The position numbers and the translations under genes are program-made. Of a stretch of DNA of 64,000 nt, positions 56,660 to 59,343 are shown piece after piece. Position 1 is the first letter of the stretch. Each line of letters starts with the position of its first letter. The notes below the pieces were generated by a model. That model ran no database searches, had not been told where the DNA came from, and saw nothing but the letters and a program-made list of their open reading frames with translations. Origin of the DNA: Candidatus Borrarchaeum weybense (lineage in GTDB: Archaea; Asgardarchaeota; Sifarchaeia; Borrarchaeales; Borrarchaeaceae); assembly GCA_019057385.1 (NCBI GenBank), contig JAHQJS010000008.1:128001-192000 (forward strand), given 5' to 3'.

Positions 56660-57619
56660 ATGGTGGAGAGTACTGAATTAACTGAAACTAAATTTACACC
56701 GGGTGTAGCTATTTCTTCTCAAGAATGTATGGAATGCGGTTCAACTGAAATTGTAATGGACTCTATTCGAGGGGAGAGAATTTGTAGTATATGTGGATTA
56801 GTAATTACAGAACATGTGATAGATACTGGTCCTGAATGGAGAGCGTTTACTTCAGATGAACGCAATAAAAGAAGCAGAGTAGGCAGTCCAGTCTCATGCG
56901 TTGTTCCTTCTATGGGACTATCAACTATGATTGGGTGGGAAAATAGAGATATTTATGGCAACAAATTGTCACCAAAAAAACGTGCCCAAATCTATAGATT
57001 GAGAAAATGGCAAATACGAACAAGATCACAAGGTTCTTATGAGCGTAATCTCTCCCACGCTATACGCGAACTAGAAAGACTTTCTAGTCAACTTGGAATT
57101 CACAATGGAGTAAAAGAATCAGCGGCTGTCATCTATCGGCGGGCTATAGAAAAAAAGTTAGTTCGTGGACGTTCAATAGAAGCTATGGTTGCTGCATCTG
57201 TGTATGCAGGTTCACGACTTAGGAAAGTTCCTCGTACCCTGGATGAGATTGCCCAGTGTACACGTGTTAATAAAAAAGAATTAGGTCGTTGCTATCGTTT
57301 AATTCTTCGAGAACTTCATATTTCAATCCCCATAGCCAGTCCAGTTGACTTCATTTCTCGTTTTAGTGAAGAATTAAAAATCTCTGGAAAAACTCAACAA
57401 CGTGCAATAGAAATTCTAAATCAAGCAAAAGAATTTGGAATTACTGCTGGTAAAGATCCAACTGGTCTTGCTGCTGCAGCATTGTATATCTCAAGCATTA
57501 CTGAAGGTGAGAGAAGAACCCAAAGGGAAATTGCAGAAATAGCAAGGATAACTGAAGTTACTGTTCGTAACCGCTACAAGGAAATTGTTAGAGTACTTGG
57601 AATAAAAATAGCTGTCTAG
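56660..57619 (+). CDS. tfb: Transcription initiation factor IIB
   Basis: CMEC...CSIC ribbon, GPEWRAF, RLRKW, GRSIE, GKDP, TEVTVRNRYKE. Confidence 0.97.
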   Translation: MVESTELTETKFTPGVAISSQECMECGSTEIVMDSIRGERICSICGLVITEHVIDTGPEWRAFTSDERNKRSRVGSPVSCVVPSMGLSTMIGWENRDIYGNKLSPKKRAQIYRLRKWQIRTRSQGSYERNLSHAIRELERLSSQLGIHNGVKESAAVIYRRAIEKKLVRGRSIEAMVAASVYAGSRLRKVPRTLDEIAQCTRVNKKELGRCYRLILRELHISIPIASPVDFISRFSEELKISGKTQQRAIEILNQAKEFGITAGKDPTGLAAAALYISSITEGERRTQREIAEIARITEVTVRNRYKEIVRVLGIKIAV

Positions 57620-57656: not shown

Positions 57657-57957
57657 TTTTATTGGCGGGAAGTCCCCTTGCGCCAGCTGGGGGATGAAAG
57701 CCGCAAGGTTTTTATAGTGTTTTGCACAGAAGAGTTCTGATGAATATCGAGAGGAAAGCAGGGATACAAGACTCTTGATAGGAAGGCAGTATGGTGTGAT
57801 TTTGAAACCTGAGGGTTGCTATCACAGAATGCCAAGTGGACAGGCTATTCTCTTTAGAGGGTAATCTGCGACACACAGCCGAACGTAAAACGAAAGTTTC
57901 CCGCAAGGGTTGGGAGGACTCGCAGGAAGCCCCATCTGAAAGGGTGGGGTAGTTCAC
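57657..57957 (+). mobile_element. 301-bp non-autonomous relative of the 41359-42742 tnpB element with intact omega-RNA
   Basis: TTTAA|ttttattggcgggaagtcccc LE; 57819-57957 aligns to the tnpB 3' end/RE (41359-41504). Confidence 0.9.
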
Positions 57958-59343
57958 TGAACATGTTGATACCATCGTTTATATTCCACTAATGCCCCTA
58001 ATGTTCTAATAGCTCTTTCTGGTAGTGTATGAACTGGAATTTTGTTCCACTCTAAAAATCTTTTATATTTTTCAAATTGCTTAAATGTGCTTCCCAAGCA
58101 GGATATAATAGGTTTTTTACTGCTTTTCATAACTGCAACAAGTGTTTTGATTGTCTGAAACTCGATATTTGGACCACTTGGGATTGTTACGACAAGCACA
58201 GAATCAACTTGTGGGTCGCTTAGAATGAGTTTTGTTACCCATTCATATCTCTCCGTGTCAGCATCCGCTGCTAAATCAACTGGATTTGAAGGGGTACAAT
58301 GTTGAGGTAAACTATGCAATTGTTCAAGCGTTTTACTGCTAAACTCTGCAAGACGTAAATCATTATTTTCAAGAGCATCTGCTGCTAAGACACCATGTCC
58401 ACCACTATTTGTTATTATACCCACATTATTTCCTTTAGGTAATGGTTGAGTTGCAAAGCAATAGCAAATATCAAGGAGTTCTTCTAGATCCTTTGCAGTG
58501 ATTACACCTGTTTGTTTGAACATTGCTTTAAATGATTCTACAGAACCTGCGAGAGACCCAGTATGTGATTTTGAAGCTTTTGCTCCTGCTTCTGTTTTTC
58601 CAACTTTGCAAATAATAACGGGTTTTGCTTTAGTAACCTCTCTTAGTGTCTTGTAAAATCGTCTTCCTTCTTTTACACCCTCAACATACATTCCGATAAC
58701 TTTAGTGGTTGTATCTTGTTTTAAATATCCTAGAAGATCGCTTTCATTTACATCTATGGCATTTCCATAAGAACATGTTTTACTAATTCCTATCCCCCGA
58801 TATGCACACCATTCAAGTAGTGTTACAAGGATTGCTCCAGATTGGGATAACAACGCAATATTTCCTTTTGTTGGATATCCTATTGTCCTTTCACGTGGTA
58901 CAAGAAAACTATTGATTCCAGAATAAGGATCAAATATACCAATACAATTTGGACCAATGATTTGCATTCCATACTTATGAGCAATTTTTGTGATTTCATT
59001 TTCTCTTTCAGTTCCTACTTCATTTCCTGTTTCTCCAAAGCCTCCAGTGACAATTATAATTACTTTAACTCCCTTTTCTCCGCATTCTTGAACAATCTTA
59101 GGAACTTGTTGTGCTGTTAAAGCTATTATTGCAAGATCCACAGATTCAGGAATATCCTTTATTTTGGAATAAACAGGAGTGTTCAAGATTTCATCTGCAT
59201 AAGGATTAATTGGATAAATTGTACCTTTGTATTTTTGGAGAATCATGTTCTCTAGAATTATGTACCCGATTTTTCCTTTATTCCTACTTGCTCCGATTAT
59301 AGCAACATTAAGGGGAGAAAAAAAAACTTCTAATGATATTCAT
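57954..59343 (-). CDS. acdA: ADP-forming acyl-CoA synthetase alpha subunit (frameshift in the first codons)
   Basis: VAIIGAS, YPINP, IGPNCIG, SQSGA, SHTGSLAG, TNSGG, NPVDL; ATG 59343 is one base out of frame. Confidence 0.85.

What the first reader, a model, noticed from the sequence alone, without database searches (positions are those of the whole stretch)
57657..57957. Mini-element omega-RNA matches the resident TnpB element with structure-preserving substitutions
57819-57957 aligns with 41504-41359. Linkers are near identical while hairpins are rewritten but still pair: TATCGGG-tattt-CTCGATA vs TATTCTC-ttta-GAGGGTA; CTCCC-atcgta-GGGAG vs CCC-gcaa-GGG; RE loop GTAA vs GAAA. Both follow TTTAA and share the LE. 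This gives a ready-made testable pair (TnpB 41403-42638, TAM TTTAA, trans guide TGAACATGTTGATACC...). Caveat: the covariation could have arisen in a related parent tnpB element elsewhere in the genome.
Basis: partly seen in the sequence, partly recalled or inferred. Interest (0 to 1): 0.75.

Follow-up and report, generated by a model that had tools for sequence, protein, structure and literature searches.

The report
Gene-less guide-RNA mini-transposon in Asgard archaea
This is a shortened copy of a small jumping-DNA family that carries no genes, only a guide RNA that probably borrows the TnpB cutting enzyme and the transposase of larger relatives; the idea is known, but the family's extra RNA parts match no catalogued RNA family.

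Summary
Window 57657-57957 is an ORF-less IS200/IS605 mini-element; empty sites in two congeners fix its ends, after TTTAA with no duplication. It belongs to a genus-wide family (probably Ca. Borrarchaeum/Sifarchaeum) of about 391-bp elements: 33 distinct copies found, four in this genome. Its scaffold is 86-88% identical to sister minis in the genome and 80% to the resident tnpB element; 34 of 37 mini scaffolds form one clade, sister to the resident's subgroup. Covariation is real across 35 scaffolds (97.8% paired). The window copy lacks about 93 bp that an orthologous insertion still has: half of a 5' pseudoknot module and a hairpin otherwise conserved inside tnpB coding sequence. The core scaffold is intact. 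The resident TnpB has a zinc-finger Cys343Tyr change, unique among 13 homologues, so sister TnpBs are better test partners. Most likely the minis are moved by the genome's single TnpA and maintained by TnpB acting in trans on empty sites. Standalone omega-RNAs are known. The 5' module, shared by gene-less elements of three TnpB families, matches nothing in Rfam. Expression, binding and cleavage are not shown.

The parts
57657..57957 (+). ORF-less IS200/IS605 mini-element, 301 bp; deletion derivative of a family of about 391 bp
   Evidence: Empty sites in G002 and G004; family alignment; undeleted orthologue L143
57652..57656 (+). TAM / left cleavage motif TTTAA, at the end of the oligo-T run after the TFIIB gene
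   Evidence: Kept in the G002 empty site; 59 of 70 left-end contexts
57657..57704 (+). Left end with subterminal hairpin (57672-57677 pairs with 57690-57695)
   Evidence: Shared with full elements; 93.9% paired in 22 minis
57709..57716 (+). Archaeal TATA-like box; predicted start of the RNA near 57737-57740 (inferred)
   Evidence: TATA-like motif 29-32 nt before the conserved GATG in 31 of 33 minis; expression not shown
57739..57789 (+). Remnant of the 5' module: 9-bp stem (57745-57753 with 57772-57780); the loop strand 57758-57763 has lost its pseudoknot partner
   Evidence: Pair counts; covariance model searches; fold
57786..57790 (+). Junction of a deletion of about 93 bp that removes the 3' pseudoknot strand and the middle hairpin
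   Evidence: Alignment with the 392-bp element at the same site in L143
57796..57825 (+). Helix H0 with a short capping hairpin; in full elements it closes the RuvC-III coding loop (41552-41546 with 41504-41498)
57820..57957 (+). Core omega-RNA scaffold: 3' pseudoknot (57836-57841 with 57952-57957), hairpin 1 (57846-57863), stem (57866-57871 with 57920-57925), hairpin 2 (57900-57909), right-end hairpin (57929-57950), terminal TCAC
57958..57977 (+). Predicted guide = host flank, antisense to the 3' end of the acetate-CoA ligase gene; its only good target is the empty site
   Evidence: Empty sites; elsewhere at most 8 nt of seed and at least 3 mismatches in 16 nt next to NTTAA
41359..42742 (-). 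Resident tnpB-only (IS1341-like) element, 1384 bp, after TTTAA at 42747-42743
   Evidence: Precise empty sites in G004 and G002
41403..42638 (-). tnpB, 411 aa: D189, G279 in place of the usual RuvC-II Glu, alternative E333, D367; zinc-finger Cys343Tyr at 41612-41610
41640..41702 (-). Middle RNA hairpin inside the tnpB coding sequence; kept by intact minis, lost in the window copy
   Evidence: 99% paired in 29 tnpB genes, 30 cells with both sides changed; for minis
56660..57619 (+). TFIIB gene (upstream neighbour)
   Evidence: Pfam
57954..59246 (-). Acetate-CoA ligase-like gene; its stop codon is supplied by the element's right end

Best explanation
The element is a member of a long-lived family of gene-less IS605-type mini-transposons whose cargo is a structured omega-RNA. 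Shown: exact ends, TAM, no duplication, many copies at different sites, conserved RNA structure, seven cognate tnpB genes and one cognate tnpA in the genome. Inferred mechanism: (1) The genome's only Y1 TnpA (C7:194221, itself in an element of this family) excises and inserts the mini through the shared end hairpins. (2) The left-end TATA box drives an RNA of about 330 nt: 5' pseudoknot module, middle hairpin, core scaffold, then host flank as guide. (3) TnpB made from any full-length copy of the family, most fittingly the subgroup holding the resident and the two C4 copies, loads this RNA in trans. It cuts chromosome copies with the empty TTTAA-guide junction, so repair restores the mini. The window copy has lost the 5' and middle domains but keeps the core, so it may or may not still guide.
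For: Family and copy number. Empty sites. Twelve helices, 97.2% paired with 16 covarying pairs in 22 minis. Scaffold covariation across minis and full elements, with near-invariant linkers and 3' pseudoknot. Intact minis keep two further RNA helices of the tnpB 3' coding region and drop the coding loops between them. The structure persists although 42-47-bp end-only forms exist (14 in the genome). Single TnpA with family ends. Catalytic triad conserved in the rearranged form shown active for TvTnpB (PMC10530073). Precedent for PATEs with omega-RNAs and for the retention mechanism (10.1101/2023.03.14.532601; PMC10691335). A TTTAA TAM with TTCAC end works for SisTnpB7 (PMC11043419).
Against: No expression, binding or cleavage data. 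Metatranscriptome contigs matched only sister elements and do not prove transcription. Sequences are related, so shuffle controls overstate. Rate evidence for selection is mixed: one orthologous pair has the element at 96.2% against 93-94% flanks, but window versus L143 is 90.3%, with four-fold sites at 22% in one neighbour and 4.9% in the other. Mosaic scaffolds (L117, L140, L041) show that recombination also homogenises copies. The window copy is deleted and the resident protein has Cys343Tyr.
Confidence: 0.7

Rival explanations
1. Dedicated pair: the mini derives from, and is tuned to, the resident TnpB at 41403-42638.
For: 80% scaffold identity, the highest among full elements (tied with C4:627391); the resident's subgroup is sister to the mini clade, support 98/85.
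Against: Sister minis are closer, 86-93%. The insertion is also present in another genome (L143), whereas the resident site is empty in the two congeners checked. The resident has Cys343Tyr. Six other copies could serve.
Confidence: 0.05
2. Passive relic: minis move or moved as DNA only, and the RNA structure is inherited and homogenised by recombination without guiding anything.
For: Mosaic scaffolds; deleted, truncated and collapsed copies occur; no expression shown.
Against: Compensatory changes that arose within the mini lineage in helices far from the DNA ends; narrow length, 389-395 bp in 29 of 33 copies; conserved TATA spacing. TnpA is known to need only the end hairpins (established knowledge).
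Confidence: 0.12
3. Decoy or regulator: the RNA binds TnpB but titrates or inhibits it, with the middle hairpin or the 5' module acting as a brake.
For: An mRNA segment next to RuvC-II inhibits AmaTnpB (PMC10278001), and the retained middle hairpin lies at the alternative RuvC-II codon region.
Against: The guide-proximal pseudoknot and right end are intact, and each copy's guide matches its own empty site, as expected for self-maintenance.
Confidence: 0.1

Closest known systems
PATE-like ORF-less IS200/IS605 elements with omega-RNA, Geobacillus ISGst (10.1101/2023.03.14.532601)
   Same: No ORF, shared end hairpins, TAM-adjacent insertion, omega-RNA at the right end, proposed action of TnpA and TnpB in trans
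   Different: Here a genus-wide clade of constant length with a left-end TATA box, an added 5' pseudoknot module and a retained coding-region hairpin; archaeal (Asgard) host
Standalone trans-acting omega-RNAs of OMEGA systems (summarised in PMC10691335)
   Same: Mobilised guide RNA without effector in a genome that holds compatible effectors
   Different: Those were shown to work in trans and their role is called unknown; here function is untested, but empty sites show the guide's natural target
RuvC-II-rearranged TnpB (RIIr-5 / TnpB2, e.g. TvTnpB; PMC10691335, PMC10530073)
   Same: Gly at the canonical RuvC-II site, invariant alternative Glu before the zinc finger, Y1 TnpA association
   Different: Clade placement by tree not tested; predicted TAM TTTAA rather than NTGAC; resident copy has Cys343Tyr
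SisTnpB7 of Sulfolobus islandicus IS605 (PMC11043419)
   Same: Archaeal, TTTAA TAM, guide begins after TTCAC
   Different: Protein and scaffold homology not tested
Exoribonuclease-resistant stem-loop pseudoknots (own knowledge; a lead only)
   Same: 5'-terminal stem-loop whose loop pairs with a downstream strand
   Different: No Rfam match, no RNase J over cut-off in the genome, nothing tested

Membership tests
Non-autonomous IS200/IS605 element (PATE-like) | Subterminal hairpins at both ends shared with a tnpA/tnpB element | tested here: met
Non-autonomous IS200/IS605 element (PATE-like) | Insertion 3' of a fixed motif without target duplication | tested here: met
   Empty sites; TTTAA in 59 of 70 contexts
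Non-autonomous IS200/IS605 element (PATE-like) | No protein gene inside; cognate Y1 TnpA elsewhere | tested here: met
   Only an 87-aa antisense frame, with no support as a gene; single TnpA at C7:194221 with family ends
Non-autonomous IS200/IS605 element (PATE-like) | Excision or insertion by TnpA in trans | not testable with these tools
   Many sites with different flanks imply past mobility
Standalone TnpB omega-RNA | Scaffold homologous to the tnpB 3' RNA with 3' pseudoknot and right-end hairpin, guide in the flank | tested here: met
Standalone TnpB omega-RNA | Expressed as RNA | tested here: inconclusive
   Conserved TATA spacing; metatranscriptome contigs of sister elements only, not proof
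Standalone TnpB omega-RNA | Binds TnpB and guides cleavage in trans | not testable with these tools
   Needs biochemistry
RuvC-II-rearranged TnpB (resident protein) | Asp, Gly plus alternative Glu, Asp motif | tested here: met
   D189, G279, E333 and D367 invariant in 13 homologues
RuvC-II-rearranged TnpB (resident protein) | Alternative Glu faces the active site in 3D | tested here: inconclusive
   AlphaFold model of the C4:1153158 sister copy unusable, pLDDT 49
RuvC-II-rearranged TnpB (resident protein) | Intact C4 zinc finger | tested here: not met
   Cys343Tyr in the resident only; effect unknown, since zinc fingers are lost in some branches (PMC10691335)
IStron | Group I intron inside the element | tested here: not met
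   No Rfam hit at gathering or E-value thresholds
HEARO / IscB omega-RNA | Match to RF02033 | tested here: not met
   The only HEARO hit lies outside the mini, in L002 1-188
C/D box sRNA | Conserved box C and box D | tested here: not met
   Box C-like start is only partly conserved and the box D-like word varies; no Rfam hit

The most novel reading that the evidence does not exclude
The 5' pseudoknot module is a portable part made for standalone guide RNAs. It sits about 25 nt behind a TATA box in gene-less elements bearing omega-RNA ends of at least three different TnpB families, was not found in the full-length elements searched, and stabilises the transcript or aids loading so that these elements can live on TnpA and TnpB supplied in trans.
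Probability: 0.3. Interest if true: 0.7.

Novelty: new variant of a known kind. Interest (0 to 1): 0.45.

Why it matters
The role of standalone omega-RNAs is stated as unknown (PMC10691335). This family offers many natural copies with known empty sites, one TnpA and seven TnpBs in one genome, so the idea of a transposon living on another's nuclease can be tested directly. Intact minis also act as a natural deletion map: they keep two RNA helices buried in the tnpB coding sequence, one conserved out to about 50% protein identity, which suggests the RNA of this TnpB group reaches about 345 nt upstream of the right end. The window copy, which lacks one of these helices and half of the 5' module, is a natural control for whether they matter. 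A stabilising 5' module could be useful in guide design. The pair as first proposed is ordinary.

Tried and rejected
Identical full-length parent: none in the genome or four congeners. Rfam at gathering and E-value thresholds: no hit for the minis or the other module-bearing elements. Origin of the 5' module in tnpB or tnpA elements: covariance model with filters off found nothing in 13 loci holding full-length or tnpB-end elements; not found in 116 other genomes of the phylum sample nor by exact pattern in viral contigs. Hammerhead, HDV-like, pistol, K-turn and C/D box readings: judged by eye against remembered consensus and rejected because required motifs or spacings are not conserved. A 13-codon leaderless ORF in the module: start and stop are mostly kept, but changes are largely non-synonymous, with two early stops at codon 10 and a frameshift, so no peptide function is supported. 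Guide targets elsewhere in the genome: none. Structure prediction: unusable, so no fold search was run. Sigma-70 promoter scan: not relevant to an archaeon. The fixed-register counts and the codon-position figures were off by one and were replaced. The 2021 standalone omega-RNA paper was not held and is cited through PMC10691335.

Full report
Observation. The alignment, hairpins, shared left end and TTTAA are all in the sequence at the stated coordinates. The window is G000:C8:128001-192000. Contig lengths tie its congeners to records of Ca. Borrarchaeum and Ca. Sifarchaeum, Asgard archaea; the host genus is inferred from this. The mini lies between convergent TFIIB and acetate-CoA ligase genes. 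Orthologous loci in G002 and G004 lack exactly 57657-57957; G002 keeps TTTAA joined directly to the flank, with no duplication. The resident element is 41359-42742 and its site is likewise empty in both congeners.

What the element is. The genome holds seven full-length tnpB genes of this family at 72-87% protein identity to the resident, one of them beside the only Y1 tnpA of the genome, and three further minis of about 391 bp. All four congeners carry more, and a metagenome scan added others: 33 distinct complete copies, 29 of them 389-395 bp. The window scaffold is 86-88% identical to the genome's other minis, up to 93% to minis elsewhere, and 80% to the resident. In a tree of 58 scaffolds, 34 of 37 minis form one clade (100/98), sister to nine full elements that include the resident (98/85). 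Three minis group with other full subgroups, so a single mini clade is rejected (p-AU 0.014; 145 columns, midpoint root). No identical full-length parent was found. Hairpin 1 is 19 nt in every full element, where it is coding, and shorter in nearly all minis, so most of its rewriting happened after loss of the gene.

RNA anatomy. Intact minis show 12 helices, 97.2% paired, with 16 of 73 pairs changed on both sides; slid controls give 37-47%. After the left-end hairpin comes a TATA-like box 29-32 nt before a conserved GATG (31 of 33 copies). Then follow a 5' module (9-bp stem whose loop pairs with a strand about 20 nt downstream), a middle hairpin, helix H0, and the core scaffold with its 3' pseudoknot and right-end hairpin. 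The pseudoknot of the module is 99% paired but rests on one both-sides change, so it is less well supported than the stem. The middle hairpin and H0 come from tnpB coding sequence. The middle hairpin is 99% paired in 29 tnpB genes down to about 50% protein identity, including changes that alter an amino acid while keeping the pair. The 5' module was not found in full-length elements and was found only in this genus among 121 genomes. It also heads gene-less elements with other ends (window 28511-28583 and 34345-34426, C7:548560, C6:389766, L114, L136), and two of those end types match other TnpB-like families in the genome. Rfam has no match.

The window copy is damaged. A metagenome contig (L143) has a 392-bp element at the same TFIIB/ligase junction. 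The window copy aligns at 90.3% with a gap of 93 bp at 57786-57790, which removes the pseudoknot's 3' strand and the middle hairpin. In an independent marsh sample a 235-nt contig is identical over 57683-57789 and stops matching there, which fits an undeleted allele but does not prove one. The core still folds: pair probabilities are 0.87-0.97 for H0, hairpin 1, the long stem, the right-end hairpin and the 3' pairing; hairpin 2 is weak at 0.06.

The protein. D189, G279, E333 and D367 are invariant in 13 homologues, the rearranged RuvC-II pattern described in PMC10691335 and shown active for TvTnpB (PMC10530073). The resident alone has Tyr for zinc-finger Cys343. The structure prediction, run on the C4:1153158 sister copy, was unusable.

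Mechanism. By analogy with 10.1101/2023.03.14.532601, TnpA excises the element without a scar, and TnpB with the element's own guide cuts the empty junction so that recombination restores it. For a gene-less element both proteins must come in trans. The guide has no other good target next to NTTAA in the genome. Ends, TAM, copy number and structure are shown; transcription, loading, cleavage and retention are inferred. I put the family acting as trans guides at about 0.7, the window copy still working at about 0.5 and the resident protein being active at about 0.4; these are judgements, not computed values.

Comparison and verdict. Gene-less IS605 elements with omega-RNAs, and trans-acting standalone omega-RNAs, are known. 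The element meets the sequence tests for that kind; the functional tests are open. What the papers I searched do not describe is the constant-length archaeal family with a shared 5' module and a retained coding-region hairpin. Verdict: new variant of a known kind, interest 0.45.

Noticed in passing
window 57954-57959: The insertion fell at the ligase gene's stop codon, and the right end supplies a new TGA in the same frame (the last codon would read His at the reconstructed empty site and reads Gln now). Three independent sites of 41 do this against 1.0% of all TTTAA sites; bias towards gene ends was not controlled.
   Followed up: partly
window 28362-28650 (-): Another gene-less element with the same 5' module but different ends; its left end is interrupted by a second gene-less element.
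   Followed up: partly
window 34345-34426 (-) and about 34190-34325 (+): Module-bearing element with a 9-nt duplication, interrupted by an element of a family with about 24 copies and no adjacent tnpB found; the G004 counterpart (L113) is uninterrupted.
   Followed up: partly
window about 4876-5330 (+); L083: A family of about 440 bp (5-7 copies in the genome) with the same left end and TAM but a different, well conserved interior and a GATGTCAC right end; no adjacent tnpB and no Rfam match.
   Followed up: partly
G000 C4-C7, e.g. C5:236440, C6:732381: Fourteen elements of 42-47 bp in which left and right ends share one hairpin, all after (T/C)TTAA; either minimal mobile forms or collapse products.
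   Followed up: partly
G000 whole genome: 42 TnpB-like frames or fragments in several families but a single Y1 TnpA; many gene-less omega-RNA-like elements.
   Followed up: partly
L117, L140, L041, L044, L048: Mosaic scaffolds: minis with full-element-type hairpins and one full element with the short hairpin 2, pointing to recombination through the shared scaffold.
   Followed up: partly
G000 C7:546894-548900: A module-bearing mini of another family sits just upstream of a full tnpB element (about 15 bp apart), so its guide runs into that element's left end.
   Followed up: no
G000 C6:389400-389850; L002 1-188: HEARO-like (IscB-type) RNA: by eye, inserted into a module-bearing element at C6; a HEARO match (E 1.7e-5) lies near a mini in G001.
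   Followed up: no
G000 C6:426338-426240 and C6:458630-458415: Truncated copies with a left end only: a mini cut at the start of the module, and a full element cut after 32 codons.
   Followed up: no
L150: A TnpB at 55% identity with the same scaffold on a contig labelled Pedobacter MAG; transfer or mis-binning.
   Followed up: no
window 40906-41307 (+): EMC6-domain gene next to the resident element's right end, a eukaryote-like protein in keeping with an Asgard host.
   Followed up: no
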